A DNA stretch of 64,000 bases from the sequence record NC_105587.1; one strand, written 5' to 3'. Below, in pieces: positions 19,804 to 61,340 of this stretch. The notes under the pieces are model-generated. The model saw only the letters and a program-made list of their open reading frames with translations, did not search any database and was not told the origin of the DNA. The DNA comes from Escherichia phage EC100. Both the position numbers and the translations under genes were made by a program. Position 1 is the first letter of the stretch. Every line of letters begins with the position of its first letter.

Positions 19804-20227
19804 AGTTATTAATGGCCTCTAAGAAGTTTTTCATAGTTTTTACGGTTGCGGTGCTTAGATCAAGATTTACACCCAAACACTCGGTTAATGCTTCCTGATA
19901 AGGAGCCTTTAATCTGCCTTCCGGGACTTCTACCTTTTTATACTCTTTATTTTTGACCTTTTTAATCATAGTCTCTAGTACAAGAAGCGGTAATTTAGCA
20001 CCTTCAATATCAGTACCCAAAAGTTCAGTTAAAATTTTATTAAGATCAAGACGAGTTAACTTTTTGCCCTTAGACATAGATGCACCTACCTTTGTATCAA
20101 TAGATTTTTCCGCTTTCTTTTCGAGCTTTTTGTACTCAGGAGAGTCATGATCACGGAGTGCAATGTTTAGCTCGTAATGTGGTATACGAAAATGTTCCGC
20201 CATTTGAGTATAGAAACGATCAGACAT
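19796..20227 (-). CDS. hypothetical protein
   Basis: 143-aa ORF; promoter upstream. Confidence 0.5.
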   Translation of the reverse strand: MSDRFYTQMAEHFRIPHYELNIALRDHDSPEYKKLEKKAEKSIDTKVGASMSKGKKLTRLDLNKILTELLGTDIEGAKLPLLVLETMIKKVKNKEYKKVEVPEGRLKAPYQEALTECLGVNLDLSTATVKTMKNFLEAINNYE

Positions 20228-20260
20228 AATATATACCTCTCTTAACTAATTTATGTATAT

Positions 20261-20289
20261 ATTATATAATAACTAGGGCTAAAAGTCAA
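20261..20289 (-). promoter_or_regulatory. sigma70 early promoter
   Basis: TTGACT/17 bp/TATAAT. Confidence 0.55.
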
Positions 20290-20302
20290 CTACTTTTTTA
20301 TC

Positions 20303-20719
20303 TTAATCTACTGCATGTATAAATTTTTTCCTAACTAGATACATAGTTATTGGGTAAATTGAGTACATAAGTATCGGGGAGAAAAGGGTGAAATACGCTG
20401 TAACTCCCCCAGCTAACATCAAAGGTATTAATGCTAGAGTAAGGGCCATAAGAATCATACCGAATGAAACAGCCAAAGCTATGGATATAGGATTCTCTAG
20501 TTCCATCCATAACCAACAATATTTCGTATCTCTATGGCAATTGCATTTACAAACGCCGAATGAACCCATAATTATATACTCTAGTCCGTGAATAACCTTT
20601 ATTAATAAGCTATTTCGGGTAGTTAATGCAATGATAGTAAAGACTATCATTAAAACGAATACTACTAGACTTATTTTCCAGATACCTAGCAGCATCATAG
20701 TGAATAGTTCTGCAAACAT
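20303..20719 (-). CDS. integral membrane protein
   Basis: 138 aa, about four hydrophobic helices. Confidence 0.5.
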   Translation of the reverse strand: MFAELFTMMLLGIWKISLVVFVLMIVFTIIALTTRNSLLIKVIHGLEYIIMGSFGVCKCNCHRDTKYCWLWMELENPISIALAVSFGMILMALTLALIPLMLAGGVTAYFTLFSPILMYSIYPITMYLVRKKFIHAVD

Positions 20720-20797
20720 GGCTTTCTCCTATCTTCAAAAAATTATTAAAGCCCCCTTTGCCTAAAAAGGCGGGAATATTCCCGCCTCAGTTATTAA

Positions 20798-21211
20798 TTA
20801 AACTAGTTCGACATGACCGCCATCATAGGTACCACGTTTTATTTCGTCGTGATAATCTCCCGAAGCATTCCAATCAGCACCAAAACGAAGTTTAATGCCC
20901 AGTTCTTTACCCGCTTGTTCAAAAGCCTTTTTAACTGCCCAAAATGCTTCTAAATCATTCCAATCAATTTTGCCATTAATGTATGGAGCAAAATCAAGTG
21001 CATCCCCAGTAATATGCTTGCTTTTACTAGGATCTTTTAAAAATGAAGTACCATTAGCAATATTCTGGGCACTTTGTGCTACTGTACGAATACCCTGTAC
21101 GATCGTGAAATCATATGGAGATAATTCTAAAGCTCTACGAGCTACTTTTTGTAGCTCTGGCTTAACGGTAGCTAATTGTTTTTCGCTATTTTTACCAAAT
21201 TTAAAACTCAT
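20798..21211 (-). CDS. endolysin (L-alanyl-D-glutamate peptidase, M15-like)
   Basis: 137 aa; 'SKHITGDALD' and 'DGGHVEL' zinc-peptidase motifs; immediately downstream of holin. Confidence 0.75.
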   Translation of the reverse strand: MSFKFGKNSEKQLATVKPELQKVARRALELSPYDFTIVQGIRTVAQSAQNIANGTSFLKDPSKSKHITGDALDFAPYINGKIDWNDLEAFWAVKKAFEQAGKELGIKLRFGADWNASGDYHDEIKRGTYDGGHVELV

Positions 21212-21864
21212 ATTGATCTACCTAAAGATCTCTGTTGTGGGGAACAGAGCTTTGTTAAATACTCGTTAAATTTCTCAGAATCGGCTGTATCTACAGGATT
21301 ATCTTTCCAAGCAATACCAATATATCCAGCATAGATATTGTTTAGATTGAAATACGGACAAGTGTATATGTAATTAAAAGTAACGTTCTTAAACGCAGGT
21401 ATATTTAACCCCATGTATTTATTTACTTTTACACTTAAATCCGATGCGTAGTTAAAGCCTTCCAAGTGACGTCTATATAGCTCAGACGTTTTATTTACCG
21501 CTTTATCGGCCAAGTCAGCCCTATCTAATTGCGCATTGCTTTCCCATGCAATAATGTTAGAATAATCATTAATGGCATCGGGTTTATACTTGACGACAAA
21601 AACAGCATCCGCACCCGTTTGAGAAAAGAGTACCATGCTCTTTTCTCTAGCTACATTAGGAAAGTTATCTATCCTTTGAGTTTGAACATCCTGTAGAACC
21701 GCAGACGTGGAGAAAGTCTTTAAGAATGACATCACCTCGCTAGTATTACTAACAAATAAGAAAATAATGACAGCAACTAAGATAGTTAGCAGACGTTTAA
21801 GAAGCGATGCTGGATCTTTCGCTTCTTGGAGCAGTACTGTTAATAATTGTAAGAACTTTTCCAA
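21208..21864 (-). CDS. holin
   Basis: 218 aa with N-terminal TM helix, start/stop-coupled to endolysin. Confidence 0.65.
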   Translation of the reverse strand: MEKFLQLLTVLLQEAKDPASLLKRLLTILVAVIIFLFVSNTSEVMSFLKTFSTSAVLQDVQTQRIDNFPNVAREKSMVLFSQTGADAVFVVKYKPDAINDYSNIIAWESNAQLDRADLADKAVNKTSELYRRHLEGFNYASDLSVKVNKYMGLNIPAFKNVTFNYIYTCPYFNLNNIYAGYIGIAWKDNPVDTADSEKFNEYLTKLCSPQQRSLGRSI

Positions 21865-21980
21865 TTGTAACCTCCTCTAACCATTACCATTATACTAATT
21901 TTGGAGGAAAATTACAATGTGTTTTTAAAGATCACTTCTGGAGCATAAAATTTTGTCGTTGTCAAGAAGAATTTTAGATA

Positions 21981-22010
21981 AAAGAAAAGCCAGGGTCGTT
22001 AAACCCTGGC
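21981..22010 (-). terminator. rho-independent terminator downstream of ClpP-like gene
   Basis: GCCAGGGT-loop-ACCCTGGC then TTTTCTTT on reverse strand. Confidence 0.6.
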
Positions 22011-22020
22011 TTAAAATTAC

Positions 22021-22620
22021 TTACTCTTCATTGTGCTCCTCGGACTGAGGTAACTGGGCTTTATTATATTGCTCAGATCGATATTTTGCCAAGATTTCAA
22101 TACGCTTATGGATTTCCTTGCTATCTAGATAGATATTTTTGTTGTCTTTTACCATCTCGTCGATTTCATCTATTGAGAAGAACGGATAGTAGACATCTAA
22201 CATCATATCTTCTACGAACTTGTTGTAAGATTCATAGGCTTTCTTGATTTCTTGACCTTTCTCACAGAACCCACCAGAGAACGTATGTCCCATTAGCGTA
22301 GCATGTGGATGTACTACCCATCCATGACAGGATAGGAAAATTGTGCAGTAAGCAGAAGCACTAGGACCAACCAGATGTCCTATAACTGTTCCACGGCAAT
22401 TAGCAATTAAGTTAGATAACTGTGCCGCAGTATCAACATAACCACCCGGGCCATTAATCATCAGATTAATTTCGTCGTCCTCATTTGCCTGCATAAGTAC
22501 CATTGATAAATCACGGTATTCATCCGGCGGGCCTAATTCTTCATCAAAGAAAAAGGTATACTCATTAGATTGGCGAATGGAGTGAAACAGGTTAGTCTTT
22601 TCTTCTTTTTTATTAGTCAT
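22021..22620 (-). CDS. ClpP-like serine peptidase
   Basis: 199 aa; 'NGPGGYVDT', 'GPSASAYCT', 'HPHATLMGH' resemble ClpP Ser/His regions. Confidence 0.55.
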   Translation of the reverse strand: MTNKKEEKTNLFHSIRQSNEYTFFFDEELGPPDEYRDLSMVLMQANEDDEINLMINGPGGYVDTAAQLSNLIANCRGTVIGHLVGPSASAYCTIFLSCHGWVVHPHATLMGHTFSGGFCEKGQEIKKAYESYNKFVEDMMLDVYYPFFSIDEIDEMVKDNKNIYLDSKEIHKRIEILAKYRSEQYNKAQLPQSEEHNEE

Positions 22621-22632
22621 AGCGATCCTTGA

Positions 22633-23385
22633 TTATCCAACTAGTGGTTCTAGCTCTAAGTCACAGAAGTTATAAACTTCTAGTTTAAGGTTATTGATAC
22701 CATCGAATTTATTAACTAATTCGTGAGTAATATATTTTGCAGGAATACCACTTTCAGATGGATGATCTGATTTAATAGTGAACTTCTGCTCAGCGGGTAC
22801 TACATTTACTATCAAAGAATCCATATCTAAATGGTTTGTTTCTCTGAGTAACTCTCCTTCATTGGGGAATCTAACATCTGTTATTACGGCGACATCTGGG
22901 TCGTCTTTAGCGATGGATTGCTCCAGAATTATGAGCCAAATGCGTTCATGCACCAGCTGCCTTCCTAGCTCTGTCCCTACGAGCTGTAACATTTTTCTCG
23001 GAGAAATAAATAAACTATAAAGTCCGTCTTCTTTATTCTCTGAGATAAGTTGTTGAGGATTAAGATATTTTTCCTCAAAAATAGGCCAAACGTACGAGAA
23101 GTCTTCAAACTTATCGATACCGTACTTAAACCACACATCCCTGGCTCGTTCCAACTGAGATTGTGTGACCGTAAACCATTGGTCAATCTCTTTCCCCCTG
23201 CGCTCTCCTAGAAACTCTGGAGTTACACCGAGGATTACGGATGCAAGTTCATAAACGGGCTTAGCAAAACTATAACGACGAGATAAACACGTTGGATACG
23301 TGTCATTACACCAATCGATAATTAATTTTGCAACGGTATCTTTTCCCGAACCAGCTTCACCATGTAAACCGACTAATACTGACAT
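22633..23385 (-). CDS. dnk: deoxynucleoside monophosphate kinase
   Basis: 250 aa; P-loop 'GEAGSGKDT' at N-terminus. Confidence 0.75.
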   Translation of the reverse strand: MSVLVGLHGEAGSGKDTVAKLIIDWCNDTYPTCLSRRYSFAKPVYELASVILGVTPEFLGERRGKEIDQWFTVTQSQLERARDVWFKYGIDKFEDFSYVWPIFEEKYLNPQQLISENKEDGLYSLFISPRKMLQLVGTELGRQLVHERIWLIILEQSIAKDDPDVAVITDVRFPNEGELLRETNHLDMDSLIVNVVPAEQKFTIKSDHPSESGIPAKYITHELVNKFDGINNLKLEVYNFCDLELEPLVG

Positions 23386-23738
23386 TAATCTTTCCTATTG
23401 TTAATTGGTGGATAATATACTAAACAACGTTTTTCTTGTAAATCTTGACGATAGAAGCAAACCATACTTGTCAGTCGTGAAATATATGAGTATTCTGCCT
23501 CACGGCATTTTGCCAACATATTCCAATCTTTATATGGTACAACAACTACTACGCCATCTTCTCCATTTGTAGCTAATTTCTTTTCAAACTTAAAGTCAAA
23601 GCTACAAGGTTGAAGTCCTTTAGGCCAGTCTACATGAGCTTGCTTTAACTCATGAGATGGCTCTGGTTTTATTTCTTCTGCACAGCCTGTGATTGTGATT
23701 GCGGCTGCGAGCAGTATTCCAAGTTTCCAGTTAAACAC
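23385..23738 (-). CDS. putative lipoprotein (o-spanin-like)
   Basis: 117 aa; signal peptide with lipobox 'ITGC'; overlaps 3' end of upstream TM/coiled-coil gene in another frame. Confidence 0.45.
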   Translation of the reverse strand: MFNWKLGILLAAAITITGCAEEIKPEPSHELKQAHVDWPKGLQPCSFDFKFEKKLATNGEDGVVVVVPYKDWNMLAKCREAEYSYISRLTSMVCFYRQDLQEKRCLVYYPPINNRKD

Positions 23739-24112
23739 GCTAATCTTTCCTCGAACTCTTTACTCTGCTTTTTAGCAATTAATGTTACCAATCCAGGCTT
23801 TGCAGCTATAATATCTTGTCGACTAAGAGCTTTATCTAACTGCTTAATCTTTTTGTCTAGATCTGCTTGCGAAATATTATTCATTGTGAAATACTGATTC
23901 ATTCTAGTCTCACGAAGTTCGCTTTCAGCTTTCACCTTATTAAGGGAGGTTTCTAGAGAAGAAATCTTTTTAGTAGCTACTGCAAGATCACCTGCTAGAG
24001 TTTCAACCTTATTAACTAAGTGATAGGCACCGAACCCGATGCCTATCGCTAGACCTGCTCCCAAGATATACCACTTACCTTGCCATAGAGAACTAATAAA
24101 GTTTTTTATCAT
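23669..24112 (-). CDS. membrane-anchored coiled-coil protein (i-spanin-like)
   Basis: 147 aa; N-terminal TM helix then long helical region. Confidence 0.45.
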   Translation of the reverse strand: MIKNFISSLWQGKWYILGAGLAIGIGFGAYHLVNKVETLAGDLAVATKKISSLETSLNKVKAESELRETRMNQYFTMNNISQADLDKKIKQLDKALSRQDIIAAKPGLVTLIAKKQSKEFEERLACLTGNLEYCSQPQSQSQAVQKK

Positions 24113-24801
24113 CTTTTCATATTCCTAAATGATGTAACCGTATCAAATCCATGTGCTGCTAGGCGGTCTTTATCAGAAGTGGTAATAATATCTGGTTCTC
24201 CAGTTCCAAGCACCCCCCAGATATATTGCTCAACCCTCTGGTGTAATCGGTATAAGTTGCTTTCAACTTCCTGCCACGGAATACCTGATAGATGTAGGCG
24301 TGGGTTAGTTATAGCCTTGAAATACTTATTACTATCTTTATTACTATCTTTATTATTTGGAACTACTGAGTCTAGAACCGCTAAGGGTACTCTTAACTCA
24401 GCTAAGGCTTCTTCAGCTTTAGAGGTAACTTCCTCTTGCCAGGATAGGATAGATTCTTTTGGCTTCCCCCTATTTATATCTAGCAGAGAAAACCCCGTTG
24501 ACCATCCATTCTCTTTCAGAACTTCTAATGCTTTGTCTAGGTTGAAAGTTTTTACTTGAGTATCCAATACATCAATATGGTACATCCAGTAAATCTCTCC
24601 TGCTAGGAAAAACGGTAGAATTTTAAAGTAGCCGTTCTTTTCACCAACACGAGCAATTATACGTTCTTGCATAATCATGTAGTTGCCATCATCTGGAGCC
24701 TTTATTGTTAGCTCTTCAGTTTTACGCTCCCAAACACGATCTGGGTCGAACAAACTGTTCTGCAAATCATACACATCGGCGAACTTAGAAATAATCCTCA
24801 T
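24109..24801 (-). CDS. hypothetical protein
   Basis: 230 aa; internal 'NKDSNKDSNK' repeat. Confidence 0.5.
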   Translation of the reverse strand: MRIISKFADVYDLQNSLFDPDRVWERKTEELTIKAPDDGNYMIMQERIIARVGEKNGYFKILPFFLAGEIYWMYHIDVLDTQVKTFNLDKALEVLKENGWSTGFSLLDINRGKPKESILSWQEEVTSKAEEALAELRVPLAVLDSVVPNNKDSNKDSNKYFKAITNPRLHLSGIPWQEVESNLYRLHQRVEQYIWGVLGTGEPDIITTSDKDRLAAHGFDTVTSFRNMKR

Positions 24802-24832
24802 ATTTAATCCTCTTGCCTCAATCTATAAACAT

Positions 24833-24861
24833 ATTATACAAAAGTTTGGGCATCTAAGCAA
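24833..24861 (-). promoter_or_regulatory. strong sigma70 early promoter
   Basis: TTGCTT/17 bp/TATAAT. Confidence 0.6.
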
Positions 24862-24883
24862 CTAAAATTTTATTATAAAAATA

Positions 24884-24910
24884 GCCCAGTCGCAAAAGTG
24901 CAGGCTGGGC
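24884..24910 (-). terminator. hairpin terminator
   Basis: GCCCAG/CTGGGC stem, T-rich both sides. Confidence 0.45.
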
Positions 24911-24955
24911 TTTGTCATTATTTGCTTTTGCTAGTAAGTTGATTTAGTATCAATC

Positions 24956-25336
24956 TTATGTAATATTAGTTTCTCTAGCTTTGCGTAGTACCCCTGCATT
25001 TCTCCACAATTTGATGTCAGCAACTGTTTCTTTATATGGAGCAATGGTAGAACCAATTGGGCCAGCAACTAATAGTCCAAAGAACCCTACAATACGCATG
25101 TAGAACAAGCATTCTTTGGCTGTCATATTATTTACTGCTTTTTTCTGCTTTTCATCTTTAAACTTCTGTTCTTGATCATCAATACGTAGATACTTAACAA
25201 ACCATTCAGCAGAATGTTCATCCAAATGTCTAATAATAGCTATCGCATATACAGCACCGATTAAAAACCAAGTTGTAACAAGAATTAGTAATATAATCAT
25301 ATTATCTCCAGTTATGGCTAGCAGCCACCTCACCAC
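24956..25336 (-). CDS. membrane protein
   Basis: 126 aa, hydrophobic helices. Confidence 0.45.
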   Translation of the reverse strand: MVRWLLAITGDNMIILLILVTTWFLIGAVYAIAIIRHLDEHSAEWFVKYLRIDDQEQKFKDEKQKKAVNNMTAKECLFYMRIVGFFGLLVAGPIGSTIAPYKETVADIKLWRNAGVLRKARETNIT

Positions 25337-25410
25337 TTACCGCACTAAGGGGCACGACTCCCTTATCCGTAACAGTTGCAGGTGACGCAACTCGGTCCTA
25401 CGCGAGTTCT

Positions 25411-25695
25411 TTAGGTATTCTGCATTTCAGCTTTAAATTTTTTCATATTACGAGTCTTTCTATAAAAGAAAAACACAGATGTTGGGCCTAGAAGAATATC
25501 CACAATAAATATCATAGATCTAGCACATCTGAGTAATGTTTTATCATCAAGAGGAGGCAGATCTAACGGTCGAGTTTTATGTATAACGTATAATATTACA
25601 TCTTTATTCTTAGAAATATACAGATCATCAACCAAGCTGTAAATAGCTACTATAGATCCAATGACGAACCAAAGAGCAAATGGAGAGATAATCAT
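25411..25695 (-). CDS. membrane protein
   Basis: 94 aa, hydrophobic helices. Confidence 0.45.
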   Translation of the reverse strand: MIISPFALWFVIGSIVAIYSLVDDLYISKNKDVILYVIHKTRPLDLPPLDDKTLLRCARSMIFIVDILLGPTSVFFFYRKTRNMKKFKAEMQNT

Positions 25696-25988
25696 TTCAG
25701 ATCCTTTTCATTAATTAGAATATTAGTAAACAGTGGAGTAACTCCTAGACTCATAGTAGGTCCAAACGTATTCATGGCTACCCACAATTGCATAGTGATC
25801 ATCCCATCTTTAATCTCTGGATCTTTATATTCTTCGATACGTTTTTTGGCAAAGGCAACTACATCTGGAATACTACCGTTCTTTACAACATGATCATGCC
25901 AAAACTGAGCGTTTTCACTTCGTAGGAATGTTAAAACATCCTTAGTTGCCGGAATCTGCACTGTGCTATTGATGTTTAGTCTTTTCAC
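25692..25988 (-). CDS. hypothetical protein
   Basis: 98-aa ORF. Confidence 0.45.
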   Translation of the reverse strand: MKRLNINSTVQIPATKDVLTFLRSENAQFWHDHVVKNGSIPDVVAFAKKRIEEYKDPEIKDGMITMQLWVAMNTFGPTMSLGVTPLFTNILINEKDLK

Positions 25989-26385
25989 GTTCTTCTCTCC
26001 GACGTTTAGATTCTTTCATCATATGAGCTGCTACAACTTCGTGGTAGTAGTCATTAATGTTATCTTCTGGCAAGAAATGCTTAATAGTCTCTAGCTGACA
26101 AATAACTCGATGAAGATGGTTATTTGGTAGACACAATTTTATACCTGCAACAAATCCAGAGAAGCCTGGAACACTGAACATGGGTTGGGCTTCTACTCTG
26201 CCTTCAGAGTTGATATTAAGCTCAATTGAGATACCCATTTTCATGCTATAAAGCTGGCAATATTCTCCATTACCAGACCTTGACCAAACAGTGAAGTCCT
26301 CATCAATTTGATCTTGGATTTCTGTAATTGCAAATTTAATTCTAGGGTCTAAATTATTCATCTTCACCTTCAAAGTCGCAATCAT
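25966..26385 (-). CDS. hypothetical protein
   Basis: 139-aa ORF. Confidence 0.5.
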   Translation of the reverse strand: MIATLKVKMNNLDPRIKFAITEIQDQIDEDFTVWSRSGNGEYCQLYSMKMGISIELNINSEGRVEAQPMFSVPGFSGFVAGIKLCLPNNHLHRVICQLETIKHFLPEDNINDYYHEVVAAHMMKESKRRREEREKTKHQ

Positions 26386-51928: not shown

Positions 51929-52690
51929 TTACACCTTCCCCATGTCTTTAAAAATATCGTAGAATGCTTTAGACTCAGCAGAACGAACGTTATCGATCAA
52001 TTCGATCATTGAGAATGGAGCATTTTCATATTTCTCATAAACTTCCATAAGAAGTGCTAGACCTGAGTCACCTTTAATGTCTTTCTGAGCTATATCTCCG
52101 CAGATAATTAAACGGCAGTCTTGTCCTACACGAGTTAGGAGACAAACCATTGCCTCAACGGAAATATTCTGAGCTTCATCGACAATTACATAGGAGTTGT
52201 TGAAAGTTCTGCCACGAGCATGTTCTATAGCCAAAAATTTAATTTTCTGGCGTTCGACATATCCCTTATAGGCATGATCACCGATGGCCCATTTCATACC
52301 ATCAGCTATTGGCTCCAACCAAGGCTCTAGCTTTTCTGCTAGATCACCAGGAAGCATACCAAGAGACTTACCTAGAGGTTCATTAGGACGTACGAGAATC
52401 ACTTGCTCAATATCTGAGTGAATGTCTACGAGTTCCTGAGCTGCAAGAACGGACGGGATAAAGGTTTTACCTGTACCTGGTTCACCGATACCTACAGTCA
52501 CTGTGTTGTTCTTGATCATATTGATATATGATTTTTGCTCTCGGTTTTTACCTACTAGGGATTTAGCAACTGGGTTAGCGTAATCATTAGAAAAATCAGC
52601 CTGAATTACGTTATTCTCATATTTGTTGCCACGCTTTCTTGAACCATTGCGGTTCTCTCTTTTTTGACGTGCTTTTCCCATAAATAACAC
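51929..52690 (-). CDS. phoH: PhoH-like ATPase
   Basis: 253 aa; Walker A 'GEPGTGKTF', Walker B 'VIVDEAQN'. Confidence 0.8.
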   Translation of the reverse strand: MLFMGKARQKRENRNGSRKRGNKYENNVIQADFSNDYANPVAKSLVGKNREQKSYINMIKNNTVTVGIGEPGTGKTFIPSVLAAQELVDIHSDIEQVILVRPNEPLGKSLGMLPGDLAEKLEPWLEPIADGMKWAIGDHAYKGYVERQKIKFLAIEHARGRTFNNSYVIVDEAQNISVEAMVCLLTRVGQDCRLIICGDIAQKDIKGDSGLALLMEVYEKYENAPFSMIELIDNVRSAESKAFYDIFKDMGKV

Positions 52691-58550: not shown

Positions 58551-60389
58551 GTGTTTTCTATCCTTCAAGGTCACGCCGGATTTTCTCGTGATTTAGCAAC
58601 AGGTATTTGGCGAGAAATCAAAGCGGAAGATTATACCTTTGCCAAGCGATTCTCGAAAGAGCATCCAGAAGGTAAACCAGCTTCTATGCCCTTCAAATTT
58701 GATGTAATAGAAGAGCACGACCCACAAAGCCTTGCCGAAATGTTACCCCTTATGAGACGTTTAACGTCTGACCCTCATATCGTTGCGGTACGAGGTCGAT
58801 GTCTTGCACCTAAAAATAATGTGCGACGTAAGAAAGGTAACTTTAATGTATCTAATCCTAGTAATATTATTGCTATGGACGTGGATGGTATCCTAGATAC
58901 CGGTGGGTACGACAAATTTAATCTTGTTGGTATGGCCCGCCACATTATTAAGATGTTGAATAGTATTAGTGAGGATATGTTTCCTCTTGATGCAGGCTTT
59001 ATAGCTCATGCATCATCTTCGGCTGGGCTAAAACCAGGTATCCGAATGCACTTAATGCTAGAATCTAACGTCAAGGTAACTCAGGGTCAGCTAAAGTTCT
59101 TATTTACATCTATCAACGATAGTAGTAAGCAAAAATTTGGTTTTGATATTGCCGACCTAGCTTATTATTCATCTGTCCAGCTCCACTATTTTGCCGACCC
59201 CTTATTTAGCGATGGTATTGTTGATCCGTTTAAAGCGGAGAGTAAGCCACGTCTGGTGTATGTTAAAGGTTCGAAAGTAAATTTGCCCAATAATCTAGTT
59301 GACTATGAAACAACTAGAGGGGAGTTTAAGGAAGAGTTTTATTCTTTACTTGATCAAATTAAAGGCAAAAAGATTGCTTCTGATAAAGTAGAAGAAACCA
59401 TCAGCGAGTTAGAAGAGGCTGATGATGGAGTGTATTTGCGTATTATCCCCAAACTATACCATAGAGCATTAGAGGATGGTGTTGATTTTGCATGGCTAGA
59501 ACGTGAGATTAAACCAGCTTTATCTGAATATATTGCAACTAAAGATAACAGTCGTAATATTCAAGATTACTTTAATAACGGTCGTAAGCAGGCTCTCAAA
59601 GCGTTTGTTAATAATTCTAAACGTGAGATTCCATTAAATCTGAAAGGTGTTCCACTTAAGAAATTAGAAGTGGATTCTCCACCAGAAGTTCCATACCTGA
59701 AGATTAATATTGTGCCCCCAAAAGGCCATATAACATTTGTTAAGGCAAGTCTTGGTACGGGTAAAACTACGGCAGTAACTAAATGGCTGGACGCAGGTGT
59801 TCTTCCGGGCAACTTTTTAGCAGTTACAAATACTAGAGCACTGGTATCTTCAAATGCCAAGAAATTTAGTGCAGGACAATACGATAAGTCTGTAGATATG
59901 CTCAACTTTAAGCGTGGAGCTATTGATCGTATGTCCACAACTATTCACTCTTTGCATAAGTTCAAAAGTTTTATTGGGCAAATAGACACCATTTTTATTG
60001 ATGAATGTGACGCTGTAATGAATGACCTATTATTCGCCCCTGTTGTTAAACAACGTCGTGAGTGTATTCAAGTTCTACGTGACATCCTCATGACAGCTAA
60101 GACTGTAATCTTATCCGATGGTGATATTAGTGCTGAGACGATTGAAGCATATGGTTCTCTAATTGATTTTGATAAACCGGTTGCATTTTATAATCATCAC
60201 CGTAAAATGCTGTCAAAAGCTCATGCTTATGAGTTCCCTGATGAGTCCAGTATTTGGGTTGCACTTCAGACTTCTCTAGAGATGGGTGAGAAATCTATTC
60301 TAGTATCTGATTGTGGCCCGGATGAGCTAAATGAGAAAGGTATGGCACTGCGTCGTAATACGGGTGCGTTAGTTAAGGAAATCCATTGA
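58551..60389 (+). CDS. replication protein, N-terminal part (primase-polymerase-like plus P-loop NTPase)
   Basis: GTG start after ACAGGAG RBS; 'IAMDVDG' and 'HASSSAG..IRMHLM' (AEP-like), Walker A 'SLGTGKTT', Walker B 'IFIDECD'; ends at TGA 60387-60389. Confidence 0.6.
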   Translation: MFSILQGHAGFSRDLATGIWREIKAEDYTFAKRFSKEHPEGKPASMPFKFDVIEEHDPQSLAEMLPLMRRLTSDPHIVAVRGRCLAPKNNVRRKKGNFNVSNPSNIIAMDVDGILDTGGYDKFNLVGMARHIIKMLNSISEDMFPLDAGFIAHASSSAGLKPGIRMHLMLESNVKVTQGQLKFLFTSINDSSKQKFGFDIADLAYYSSVQLHYFADPLFSDGIVDPFKAESKPRLVYVKGSKVNLPNNLVDYETTRGEFKEEFYSLLDQIKGKKIASDKVEETISELEEADDGVYLRIIPKLYHRALEDGVDFAWLEREIKPALSEYIATKDNSRNIQDYFNNGRKQALKAFVNNSKREIPLNLKGVPLKKLEVDSPPEVPYLKINIVPPKGHITFVKASLGTGKTTAVTKWLDAGVLPGNFLAVTNTRALVSSNAKKFSAGQYDKSVDMLNFKRGAIDRMSTTIHSLHKFKSFIGQIDTIFIDECDAVMNDLLFAPVVKQRRECIQVLRDILMTAKTVILSDGDISAETIEAYGSLIDFDKPVAFYNHHRKMLSKAHAYEFPDESSIWVALQTSLEMGEKSILVSDCGPDELNEKGMALRRNTGALVKEIH

Positions 60390-60404
60390 AACTCTACCTC
60401 AGAT

Positions 60405-61340
60405 GTGGATATTCGACGTATTCTGGATTACACAACTAATGAACTAATTGATCAACAAATTGATTGCTTATTATGTAGTCCATCCGTAACGAGTGGTGTT
60501 GACTTTAACTATTTTGATAACGTATTTGTGATTACTAGAACTAGTAATCAAGCGCCAAACATGCGTTTCCAAGCAATCAGGCGCGACCGTGGTGCTCAGA
60601 ATATCTATTATTTTATTGATAAATCCACTAGTGGATTCTCCGCAGGTTCTGAACAATATAATATTGATGAGGGTTGGCTGGAGTTAGCACAGCAATTATA
60701 TGCACGTCGCAGGGAGCTGGAATCTAGGAACTATACTAGTACTTTACGTTATTACTTGCTTGATCAGGGTGCAACTATTGATATTTTCAGTGAAAGCTGG
60801 GGAACTATTGAAGGTGCTGGTAAAGAGTACACAGAAGAGCGAATCAAAGCTATTCTGCACTCAACTCCTGATTATTGTGCTCCACGTCATGCGGATGCGT
60901 ATGAAGCTAAGCTACTTCTTGTTCGCTATTATCATCTCGAGTCTATTAAAGATGTAACAGTTGAGCATGTTGAACAATATATAAAAGATAAACCGAATGA
61001 TCGAGCTGCATTCTTCCATAAGATGCACGAGATGTTCTGGGAAGATATTAAGAAGTGTTCAAATGTGACCATTAAACCATTCATAGAGGCTCTGAAAGGT
61101 AAGAAGAAAGATTTCTTCCTTAAAACCGGTCAGAGTGCTAACCCAAAATATGCTAGAATGTATCTTGGCATGATGGGTATTGGTAAGGATATGAACACGG
61201 AGAATATCGTAGACTGGTACAGAACCTACTGTAAAATCGAGTGTATGCCAATTCCTTATAAATTCATGACTGACGAGGAAAAACATATGCACGATGAAGC
61301 AATGTCAGAGCTAGGTGCTAGAAATGACAGTGAAGAATAA
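60405..61340 (+). CDS. replication protein, C-terminal part (same frame as 58551..60389)
   Basis: 311 aa; in frame with upstream ORF, separated by a single TGA plus 5 codons. Confidence 0.5.
   Translation: MDIRRILDYTTNELIDQQIDCLLCSPSVTSGVDFNYFDNVFVITRTSNQAPNMRFQAIRRDRGAQNIYYFIDKSTSGFSAGSEQYNIDEGWLELAQQLYARRRELESRNYTSTLRYYLLDQGATIDIFSESWGTIEGAGKEYTEERIKAILHSTPDYCAPRHADAYEAKLLLVRYYHLESIKDVTVEHVEQYIKDKPNDRAAFFHKMHEMFWEDIKKCSNVTIKPFIEALKGKKKDFFLKTGQSANPKYARMYLGMMGIGKDMNTENIVDWYRTYCKIECMPIPYKFMTDEEKHMHDEAMSELGARNDSEE

What the first reader, a model, noticed from the sequence alone, without database searches (positions are those of the whole stretch)
22021..22620. Phage-encoded ClpP-like peptidase without an obvious partner ATPase
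The 199-aa protein has ClpP-like Ser and His regions (GPSASAY, HPHATLMGH). No Clp ATPase is encoded nearby, so it may hijack host ClpX/ClpA or act as a decoy that perturbs host proteolysis.
Basis: inference. Interest (0 to 1): 0.4.

Follow-up and report, generated by a model that had tools for sequence, protein, structure and literature searches.

The report
T5 phage orphan ClpP-like protease
This is the already-annotated ClpP-like protease gene of T5-type phages (T5.042): a real, strongly conserved early gene of unknown function that lacks the surfaces needed to dock onto the host's ClpX/ClpA motors and has an altered catalytic triad.

Summary
The ORF is real. It lies at 22021-22620 on the minus strand and encodes 199 aa. 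The window is a Tequintavirus, 100% identical to Escherichia phage EC105, and the protein is 99% identical to T5.042, "putative ATP-dependent Clp protease".

- **Fold and family:** It has a ClpP fold and belongs to a large phage-only family (PHROG 1827). At least 437 clusters at 50% identity match at E<=1e-30.
- **Catalytic residues:** Ser89 and His112 are invariant in 161 representatives. The third triad residue is Asp or Glu in 152 of 161, but Asn162 in the T5 clade, always together with Gly120->Glu.
- **Selection:** Purifying selection is strong (median dN/dS 0.05).
- **Hijack/decoy idea not supported:** The residues that form E. coli ClpP's ClpX/ClpA docking patch (Y60, Y62, F82) are Asn52, Met54 and Asn74 here. 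The N-terminal gating region (ClpP residues 1-27) has no counterpart.
- **Context:** The gene sits among early and nucleotide-metabolism genes, not in the head module, and T5 has a separate prohead protease.

My best reading is a free-standing peptidase that does not use a Clp ATPase; its substrates are unknown. The gene is already annotated, and published work states its function is unknown. Side lead: in other phage lineages it lies directly downstream of phoH.

The parts
22021..22620 (-). CDS of 199 aa: ClpP-fold serine peptidase homologue, orthologue of T5.042 (PHROG 1827)
   Evidence: It is 100% identical to EC105 URN70807.1. Median dN/dS is 0.05.
22354..22356 (-). Codon TCT for Ser89, the predicted nucleophile within GPSASAY
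   Evidence: Aligns with the ClpP catalytic Ser. It is invariant in 161 of 161 family representatives. The codon was read.
22285..22287 (-). Codon CAT for His112, the predicted general base at the end of HPHATLMGH
   Evidence: Aligns with the ClpP catalytic His. It is invariant in 161 of 161 representatives. The codon was read.
22135..22137 (-). Codon AAT for Asn162, which occupies the position of the ClpP catalytic Asp
   Evidence: Alignments to Coxiella ClpP 3q7h. Across the family this position is D in 136, E in 16, N in 7, Q in 1 and T in 1. Asn occurs only in the T5 clade.
22261..22263 (-). Codon GAG for Glu120 in the GGFCEKG handle strand; a lineage-specific Gly->Glu change that always accompanies Asn162
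   Evidence: Residue pairs (120,162) are G/D in 133 representatives and E/N in 7, and E/N is seen nowhere else. Among the 25 distinct proteins from the T5-like loci (>=50% identity to the window protein), 22 carry E and N and 3 carry G and D.
22626..22630 (-). Shine-Dalgarno-like AAGGA, 5 nt upstream of the ATG and 12 nt downstream of the dNMP-kinase stop codon
   Evidence: Read directly from the sequence.
21987..22012 (-). Intrinsic terminator (11-bp stem with 6 GC pairs, followed by a T-run) immediately after the stop codon; it ends the early operon that contains the spanin-like genes, dnk and this gene
   Evidence: The same element is annotated as a terminator in T5.
22633..23385 (-). dNMP kinase (dnk), the upstream gene, apparently co-transcribed with the protease gene (context)
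   Evidence: The order dnk then protease is conserved in Pectobacterium and Vibrio T5-like phages.

Best explanation
The ORF is the T5.042 orthologue. It is a ClpP-fold (MEROPS clan SK, S14-like) serine peptidase from a large phage-specific family. Large virulent phages carry this family among their early and nucleotide-metabolism genes, and in T5-like phages it coexists with a separate, dedicated prohead protease.

**Most likely mechanism (inferred).** It assembles into ClpP-like rings and hydrolyses peptide bonds with Ser89 as nucleophile and His112 as base. The conserved Gly59-Gly60 turn probably supplies the oxyanion hole. It has neither the N-terminal gate nor the hydrophobic docking clefts of ClpP. 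It therefore most likely works without ClpX/ClpA, as an ungated processing or peptide-degrading protease acting on phage or host proteins early in infection.

**The T5 clade.** Here the triad acid is replaced by Asn162, together with Gly120->Glu. The site is probably a Ser-His dyad oriented by an amide, with lower or more conditional activity than in relatives that keep Asp.

**Shown:** fold, family membership, residue conservation, loss of docking features, genomic context and purifying selection.

**Inferred, not shown:** oligomeric state, actual catalysis, independence from an ATPase, and substrates.
For: **Identity and conservation**
- The window is 100% identical to EC105, and the protein is 99% identical to T5.042.
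- It is listed among only 8 core genes with >80% identity across 185 Tequintavirus genomes (PMC12639943).
- Median dN/dS is 0.05.

**Fold**
- The AlphaFold2 model has mean pLDDT 82.6.
- Foldseek gives probability 1.0 to many ClpP structures.

**Family**
- Profile search finds 437 clusters at E<=1e-30, mostly 175-320 aa.
- G59, G60, S89, H112 and E152 are invariant in all 161 representatives, and R173 in 159 of 161.

**Not a canonical ClpP**
- It fails the ClpP equivalog cut-offs.
- It scores higher against phage head-protease profiles.
- The docking-patch residues are polar, and there is no counterpart of ClpP residues 1-27.

**Not the head protease**
- The gene lies in the early region between dnk and the holin/endolysin cassette, with its own terminator.
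- In other lineages it sits beside phoH, dCMP deaminase, DHFR or a recombination protein.
- BF23 has a separate prohead protease (PMC10644984).
Against: - No biochemical data exist. The BF23 study states that the function is unknown.
- Asp->Asn at the triad acid inactivates canonical ClpPs. Listeria ClpP1, with Ser98/His123/Asn172, is an inactive heptamer on its own (PMC9257651). The T5-clade protein could therefore be weak, conditional or inactive.
- Oligomeric state and pore geometry could not be modelled with the tools available.
- The docking-patch mapping rests on a 16-23% identity alignment, although it is anchored by the INxPGG and catalytic Ser/His motifs.
- Recurrent linkage to phoH in other lineages leaves open a non-Clp ATPase partner.
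Confidence: 0.55

Rival explanations
1. One reading: the phage ClpP-like ring docks directly onto host ClpX or ClpA, either redirecting host unfoldases to phage-chosen substrates or titrating them as a decoy.
For: The protein has a ClpP fold with Ser and His. No Clp ATPase was found in the phage genome. The host E. coli has ClpX and ClpA (established knowledge).
Against: The EcClpP patch residues Y60/Y62/F82 map to N52/M54/N74, and the other pocket residues are largely polar in T5 and across the family. The N-terminal loop and helix A region is absent. Both elements are required for chaperone binding (PMC4416901). Sequence identity to E. coli ClpP is only about 16%. The family occurs in phages of many unrelated hosts.
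Confidence: 0.06
2. Pseudo-protease: in the T5 clade the Asp->Asn change has abolished catalysis, and the protein now serves a non-catalytic role such as a scaffold, binding protein or inhibitor.
For: Asn162 replaces the acid that is Asp or Glu in 152 of 161 family representatives. The natural Ser-His-Asn ClpP1 of Listeria is inactive alone.
Against: Ser89, His112 and the Gly59-Gly60 turn stay invariant in all 25 distinct proteins of the T5-like loci, 22 of which carry Asn162, and in the Asn162-bearing relatives down to 56% identity. dN/dS is 0.05. The paired G120E change looks like an adaptation of the site rather than decay. Purifying selection alone does not prove catalysis, however.
Confidence: 0.13
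3. Listeria-ClpP1-like mode: a T5.042 heptamer with its Ser-His-Asn site stacks on a host ClpP heptamer. The host ring aligns the phage active sites and provides the ClpX/ClpA docking face, giving indirect hijacking.
Against: Identity to E. coli ClpP is about 16%. The handle strand is among the least confidently modelled parts (pLDDT about 60). Most family members keep Asp and infect diverse hosts, so any such dependence would be specific to the T5 clade. There is no experimental hint.
Confidence: 0.04
4. Auxiliary morphogenetic protease: it trims a virion component that the prohead protease does not process, for example the tape-measure protein pb2, which is cleaved after R1127 by an unidentified protease.
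For: The Clp protease (ORF45) was detected in purified BF23 virions, with 3 peptides at low intensity (PMC10644984). pb2 is cleaved during tail assembly and the protease is not named (PMC10038345). The nearest profile families are head-maturation proteases.
Against: The gene is in the early region next to nucleotide-metabolism and lysis genes, not among the late structural genes. The family is also present in myoviruses, T4-like phages and N4-like phages with different tails. A low virion signal can be carry-over. A 1973 study title cited points to host involvement in the tail-protein cleavage.
Confidence: 0.1
5. The protease works with the phage PhoH-like P-loop ATPase, not a Clp ATPase, as a two-component system.
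For: phoH lies upstream on the same strand within 4 kb in 18 of 29 family loci. It is directly adjacent or overlapping in 9 and one gene away in 6. Alteromonas phage V22 has the same pair as CDS146/147. In Tequintavirus, both genes are among the 8 most conserved core genes.
Against: Most adjacent cases share a wider syntenic block (phoH, protease, f3, dCMP deaminase, f4), so they are largely one lineage. In this window phoH is 30 kb away (51929-52681). There is no phoH near the gene in KVP40-like, pf16 or N4-like loci. PhoH is helicase-like (Pfam AAA_19, AAA_30 and DEAD hits), not a known unfoldase.
Confidence: 0.06

Closest known systems
T5.042 'putative ATP-dependent Clp protease' of phage T5 / PHROG 1827 ('ATP-dependent protease')
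   Same: It is the same gene. The protein is 99% identical to T5.042 and 100% identical to the EC105 protein, in the same position between dnk and the holin gene with the same terminator. The PHROG 1827 match is full length at E 2e-90.
   Different: Nothing differs at the sequence level. The database name 'ATP-dependent' is inherited from ClpP and is not supported by the features examined here.
Bacterial ClpP (E. coli ClpP, PDB 1TYF; MEROPS S14)
   Same: It shares the alpha/beta ClpP fold, the INxPGG oxyanion turn, a catalytic Ser and His at equivalent positions, and a Gly-rich handle strand followed by a long handle helix.
   Different: Asp171 is replaced by Asn162. There is no counterpart of residues 1-27 (axial loop and helix A). 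The docking patch Y60/Y62/F82 becomes N52/M54/N74. A longer C-terminal helix and an acidic tail are present. Identity is only about 16%, and the protein fails the ClpP equivalog cut-offs.
Listeria monocytogenes ClpP1
   Same: It has a natural Ser-His-Asn triad and no AAA+ chaperone-binding sites (PMC9257651). It is among the closest solved structures, with 23% identity.
   Different: LmClpP1 is a cellular paralogue that is activated by stacking on ClpP2. No partner ring is known or encoded for T5.042. The T5 clade additionally carries Gly120->Glu.
Phage ClpP-related head-maturation proteases (NCBIfam NF045542; PHROG 1684, 94)
   Same: These are the closest non-self profile families (phrog_1684 E 6.5e-21; NF045542 E 2e-10). 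They are phage-borne and not known to need an ATPase.
   Different: The score is below the family cut-off (40.9 versus 120 bits). The gene is not located between the portal and capsid genes. T5-like phages have a separate prohead protease.
NfeD/STOPP stomatin-specific protease (P. horikoshii 1510-N) and SppA (MEROPS S49)
   Different: Those enzymes use Ser-Lys dyads and are membrane-anchored (my own knowledge). T5.042 has an invariant His, and I saw no hydrophobic segment on reading the sequence. It is below the Pfam cut-off (19.1 versus 40). The SPFH gene is 16 kb away, and its distribution among phages does not mirror that of the protease.

Membership tests
[quoted passage not shown] | ClpP alpha/beta fold and a Pfam PF00574 match above the gathering score | tested here: met
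[quoted passage not shown] | Score above the curated ClpP equivalog or subfamily cut-offs (TIGR00493, PRK00277) | tested here: not met
   TIGR00493 scores 15.9 bits against 308.6, and NF001368 scores 22.8 against 249.
[quoted passage not shown] | Complete Ser-His-Asp catalytic triad | tested here: not met
   Ser89 and His112 are present, but the Asp position is Asn162.
[quoted passage not shown] | N-terminal axial loop and helix A, which gate the pore and contact the ATPase | tested here: not met
   All alignments to solved ClpPs begin at the first core strand. Residues 1-16 have pLDDT below 50, and the first structural element is strand 20-25. The N-terminus is variable across the family.
[quoted passage not shown] | Hydrophobic IGF/LGF-loop docking patch (EcClpP Y60, Y62, F82 and neighbours) | tested here: not met
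   These residues map to N52, M54 and N74. I90/M92/L114 map to H82/V84/H104. Across the family the hydrophobic fraction at these positions is 0.09-0.49. The reference sequence was verified against 1tyf. The defining residues come from PMC4416901.
[quoted passage not shown] | Tetradecameric double-ring assembly | not testable with these tools
   Only single-chain prediction was available. The handle helix 123-144 is present, but the strand at 113-122 has low confidence.
[quoted passage not shown] | A cognate AAA+ Clp ATPase encoded with it or functionally coupled to it | tested here: not met
   None appears in the EC105 annotation of positions 1-100,000 of the 108.7-kb genome or in a Pfam scan of nine large ORFs. 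The last ~8.7 kb of the genome was not read. Coupling to host ATPases cannot be tested here.
Phage ClpP-related head-maturation protease (NF045542 / PHROG 1684) | Profile score above the family cut-off | tested here: not met
   NF045542 scores 40.9 bits against 120. phrog_1684 is a partial match at E 6.5e-21, compared with 2e-90 for PHROG 1827.
Phage ClpP-related head-maturation protease (NF045542 / PHROG 1684) | Location in the head module (portal, protease, scaffold/capsid) and being the only prohead protease | tested here: not met
   The gene lies between dnk and the holin gene in the early region. The capsid genes are about 77 kb away. BF23 has a separate prohead protease, ORF164.
PHROG 1827 / T5.042-like phage ClpP-fold protease family | Full-length profile match and the family-invariant residues G59, G60, S89, H112 and E152 (all 161 representatives) and R173 (159 of 161) | tested here: met
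PHROG 1827 / T5.042-like phage ClpP-fold protease family | Acidic residue (Asp or Glu) at the triad position, present in 152 of 161 representatives | tested here: not met
   The T5 clade has Asn162, always paired with Glu120.
NfeD/STOPP stomatin-operon protease | Pfam NfeD1b_N above the cut-off, a membrane anchor with an OB-fold C-terminal domain, and an adjacent SPFH gene | tested here: not met
   PF25145 scores 19.1 bits against 40. The C-terminus is a helix followed by an acidic tail. I did not run a transmembrane predictor; I saw no hydrophobic segment on reading the sequence. The SPFH gene at 38600-39547 is 16 kb away.

The most novel reading that the evidence does not exclude
The phage PhoH-like ATPase is the cognate partner of this ClpP-fold protease family, making a new ATPase-protease pair that would give the long-enigmatic phage phoH gene a function.

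In several lineages the two genes are adjacent or overlapping, with phoH upstream on the same strand. In Tequintavirus both are among the eight most conserved core genes, although here they lie 30 kb apart.
Probability: 0.05. Interest if true: 0.8.

Novelty: already known. Interest (0 to 1): 0.27.

Why it matters
T5 is a classical model phage, and this gene is one of its few near-invariant core genes, yet its function is explicitly unknown. The practical value of this analysis is that it narrows the experiments. The sequence argues against the intuitive model of borrowing host ClpX/ClpA. It points instead to a protease that works without a Clp ATPase, has a remodelled Ser-His-Asn (+Glu120) site, and has relatives in many large virulent phages.

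[quoted passage not shown] Finding the substrates could reveal an unrecognised step in early infection or in virion maturation.

Tried and rejected
- **Holin fusion in Vibrio T5-like phages.** The 320-aa homologue sits directly upstream of the endolysin gene, so I asked whether it is a protease-holin fusion linking the protease to lysis. Rejected: the extra 130 residues form an acidic, coiled-coil-like tail with no hydrophobic segment.
- **SPFH/stomatin protein as an NfeD-style substrate.** The window encodes such a protein at 38600-39547. Weakened: that SPFH protein is found in T5-likes and in Slopekvirus and Aeromonas T4-likes, which does not mirror the protease distribution, and the genes are 16 kb apart.
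- **Independence of the phoH adjacency.** Gene-family clustering of neighbours shows that most adjacent cases share a longer syntenic block and so belong to one lineage. Only two further lineages have phoH within 2-4 kb. pf16 and the N4-like PJN101 have none. The 118-aa 'PhoH-like' gene annotated in Pakpunavirus PsCh was not detected by tblastn.
- **Search that failed.** The search for related loci with the 61-sequence alignment found no conserved stretch to search with, so I used a 12-sequence subset instead.
- **Alignments that failed.** hmmalign and mafft --add did not align the C-terminal third of E. coli ClpP reliably. The Asp171/Asn162 equivalence therefore rests on the HMMER alignments to Coxiella ClpP.
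- **Literature.** Searches for any functional study of T5.042 or related phage ClpP-like proteins found none. They returned only annotation mentions, a virion proteomics detection and a core-gene table. Two phage gene-essentiality preprints do not mention it.
- **Model coordinates not accessible.** I could not measure Ser-His-Asn/Glu120 distances or model the oligomer.

Full report
**1. What is in the sequence**

The finding's coordinates hold an ORF on the minus strand (22620 down to 22021, 199 aa).
- An AAGGA ribosome-binding site lies 5 nt upstream of the ATG. The start is 12 nt downstream of the stop of the preceding dNMP-kinase gene.
- A strong intrinsic terminator follows the stop codon at 22012-21987 (11-bp stem, T-run).
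- Both quoted motifs exist. GPSASAY is residues 85-91 and HPHATLMGH is residues 104-112.

**2. Identity**

- The window is a Tequintavirus. Bases 20000-26000 are 100% identical to Escherichia phage EC105 at the same coordinates, and 455 phage records match.
- The protein is 99% identical to T5.042, annotated 'putative ATP-dependent Clp protease'. It is 100% identical to the EC105 protein annotated as a ClpP subunit.
- So this is an already-annotated gene of a classical model phage.
- A 2023 study of the T5 relative BF23 detected the protein at low level in purified virions and says its function 'is currently unknown' (PMC10644984).
- A 2025 comparison lists it among only eight core genes with >80% identity across 185 Tequintavirus genomes (PMC12639943).
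- My Nei-Gojobori estimate over 228 orthologue pairs gives a median dN/dS of 0.05.

**3. Fold and family**

- Pfam CLP_protease is matched above the gathering score (33.7 bits against 20.2).
- The curated ClpP equivalogs are missed by a wide margin (TIGR00493 15.9 against 308.6 bits).
- The best profile is PHROG 1827 (E 2e-90, full length). It is followed by PHROG 5410 and then by phage head-maturation protease families (phrog_1684, E 6.5e-21).
- An AlphaFold2 model (mean pLDDT 82.6, pTM 0.77) matches ClpP structures. Foldseek gives probability 1.0 and TM about 0.65-0.7.
- A profile search of 1.84 billion representatives finds 437 clusters at E<=1e-30, nearly all 175-320 aa and matched over their full length.
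- Phage hits span T5-like phages, KVP40-like phages, 80-95 kb myoviruses, Vequintavirinae, N4-like phages and jumbo phages.

**4. Catalytic residues**

- In 161 aligned representatives, Ser89, His112, Gly59, Gly60 and Glu152 are invariant, and Arg173 is present in 159 of 161.
- HMMER alignments to solved ClpPs place Ser89 and His112 on the catalytic Ser and His. They place the family's conserved Asp on the catalytic Asp.
- At that third position the family has Asp in 136, Glu in 16, Asn in 7, Gln in 1 and Thr in 1.
- All seven Asn cases are the T5 clade (this protein and relatives down to 56% identity). All seven also carry Glu120 where 149 of 161 have Gly.
- Among the 25 distinct proteins from the T5-like loci I fetched (>=50% identity to the window protein), 22 have E120/N162 and 3 have G120/D162. 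The latter are the Pectobacterium- and Klebsiella-type relatives.
- Both changes probably arose once on the same branch, so the coupling is a single evolutionary event. I could not measure distances in the model.
- The closest precedent is Listeria ClpP1, whose Ser98/His123/Asn172 site is inactive in the isolated heptamer and which cannot bind AAA+ chaperones (PMC9257651).

**5. Can it dock to ClpX or ClpA?**

[quoted passage not shown] In E. coli ClpP the patch residues are Y74/Y76/F96 in precursor numbering, which is Y60/Y62/F82 in the mature protein (PMC4416901).
- I aligned E. coli ClpP to the family HMM.
- Y60, Y62 and F82 map to Asn52, Met54 and Asn74. I90, M92, F112 and L114 map to His82, Val84, Val102 and His104.
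- Across the family the hydrophobic fraction at these positions is 0.27, 0.49, 0.09, 0.42, 0.30, 0.68 and 0.30.
- No alignment to any solved ClpP extends upstream of the first core strand.
- The 19 preceding residues are variable in the family. Residues 1-16 are modelled with pLDDT below 50.

Both docking elements are therefore absent. This argues against direct hijacking of ClpX/ClpA and equally against a decoy for those ATPases.

**6. Is there a phage ATPase partner?**

- No AAA+ Clp ATPase appears in the EC105 annotation of positions 1-100,000 of the 108.7-kb genome. I did not read the last ~8.7 kb.
- None appears in a Pfam scan of nine large ORFs, most of them unannotated.
Given section 5 and the closer kinship to phage head proteases, the absence is expected.

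**7. Context**

- On the minus strand the order is spanin-like genes (T5.045/044 homologues), dnk, the protease gene and the terminator. A promoter-like site then precedes the holin and endolysin genes.
- From established knowledge of the T5 map, this position (17% of the genome) is in the early region.
- The capsid and tail genes are 57-77 kb away, and T5-like phages have their own prohead protease.
- The order dnk then protease, followed by the lysis genes, is conserved in Pectobacterium and Vibrio T5-like phages.
- In KVP40-like phages the gene lies between the DHFR gene and a recombination gene.
- In PBES02 it lies near ribonucleotide reductase, glutaredoxin and phoH.
- In Barba, KIL1 and many metagenomic 80-95 kb phages it lies directly downstream of phoH and upstream of dCMP deaminase.
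- It is therefore consistently a gene of the early or nucleotide-metabolism region, not a head-module gene.

**8. Interpretation**

The best-supported reading is a ClpP-fold serine peptidase of a phage-specific clade that works without a Clp ATPase.
- It probably forms a ring that lacks ClpP's N-terminal gate.
- It uses Ser89 and His112. In the T5 clade an amide (Asn162) stands where relatives have the triad acid, together with Glu120.
- Substrates are unknown.

I rank the rivals as follows:
- a catalytically silent pseudo-protease;
- an auxiliary morphogenetic protease (virion detection; unassigned pb2 cleavage);
- coupling to PhoH;
- ClpP1-like stacking on host ClpP.

None can be excluded without biochemistry.

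**9. Verdict**

The ClpP-like identity and the lack of a phage Clp ATPase hold; the hijack or decoy idea does not.
- The feature is already known and annotated.
- What is new here is modest: the Asp->Asn plus Gly->Glu remodelling specific to the T5 clade, the loss of both ATPase-docking elements across the family, and a recurrent phoH linkage in other lineages.
- Interest is low to moderate.

Noticed in passing
window 51929-52681 (-), and loci L003, L004, L116, L119, L121, L124, L126, L128, L129 (adjacent); L123, L125, L130-L133 (one gene apart); L006, L025, L027 (2-4 kb): A phoH homologue lies upstream on the same strand within 4 kb of the ClpP-like gene in 18 of 29 family loci, and is often overlapping. 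Alteromonas phage V22 has the same pair. Most adjacent cases share a longer syntenic block, so they represent one lineage. In this window phoH is 30 kb away.
   Followed up: partly
window 38600-39547 (-): A 315-aa SPFH/Band 7 (stomatin-like) protein (Pfam PF01145, E 2e-17), annotated 'lipoprotein' in many T5-like phages. ClpP-fold NfeD proteases cleave stomatins, and the protease has a weak NfeD1b_N hit. However, the distribution of this SPFH gene among phages does not mirror that of the protease.
   Followed up: partly
window 58551-61340 (+), in-frame TGA at 60387-60389: EC105 annotates one 929-aa CDS here, but the sequence has an in-frame TGA. That splits it into ORFs 58551-60389 (with a Herpes_ori_bp/helicase-like hit) and 60405-61340 in the same frame. 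It could be a split gene, readthrough or a mis-annotation.
   Followed up: no
window 22063-22092 (-): A near-consensus sigma-70 promoter-like site (TTGGCA, 18-nt spacer, TATAAT; 11 of 12 matches) lies inside the 3' end of the protease ORF, upstream of its terminator. The overall number of promoter-like sites in the region is no higher than in shuffled sequence, so it may be chance.
   Followed up: no
L002 4899-5861 (Vibrio phage 70E37-4), and representatives P0022, P0087, P0115: Some family members are about 300-320 aa. The Vibrio phage 70E37-4 homologue (L002) has a long acidic, coiled-coil-like C-terminal tail and lies directly upstream of the endolysin gene. In the long representatives I scanned, Pfam finds no additional domain.
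   Followed up: partly
window 23385-24112 (-), 21208-21864 (-), 20798-21211 (-): The lysis genes are split by two unrelated genes. Homologues of T5.045/044, which the T5 record calls similar to T4 PseT.2, are separated from the holin-endolysin cassette by dnk and the protease gene. The holin cassette has its own promoter-like site at 21889-21917.
   Followed up: no
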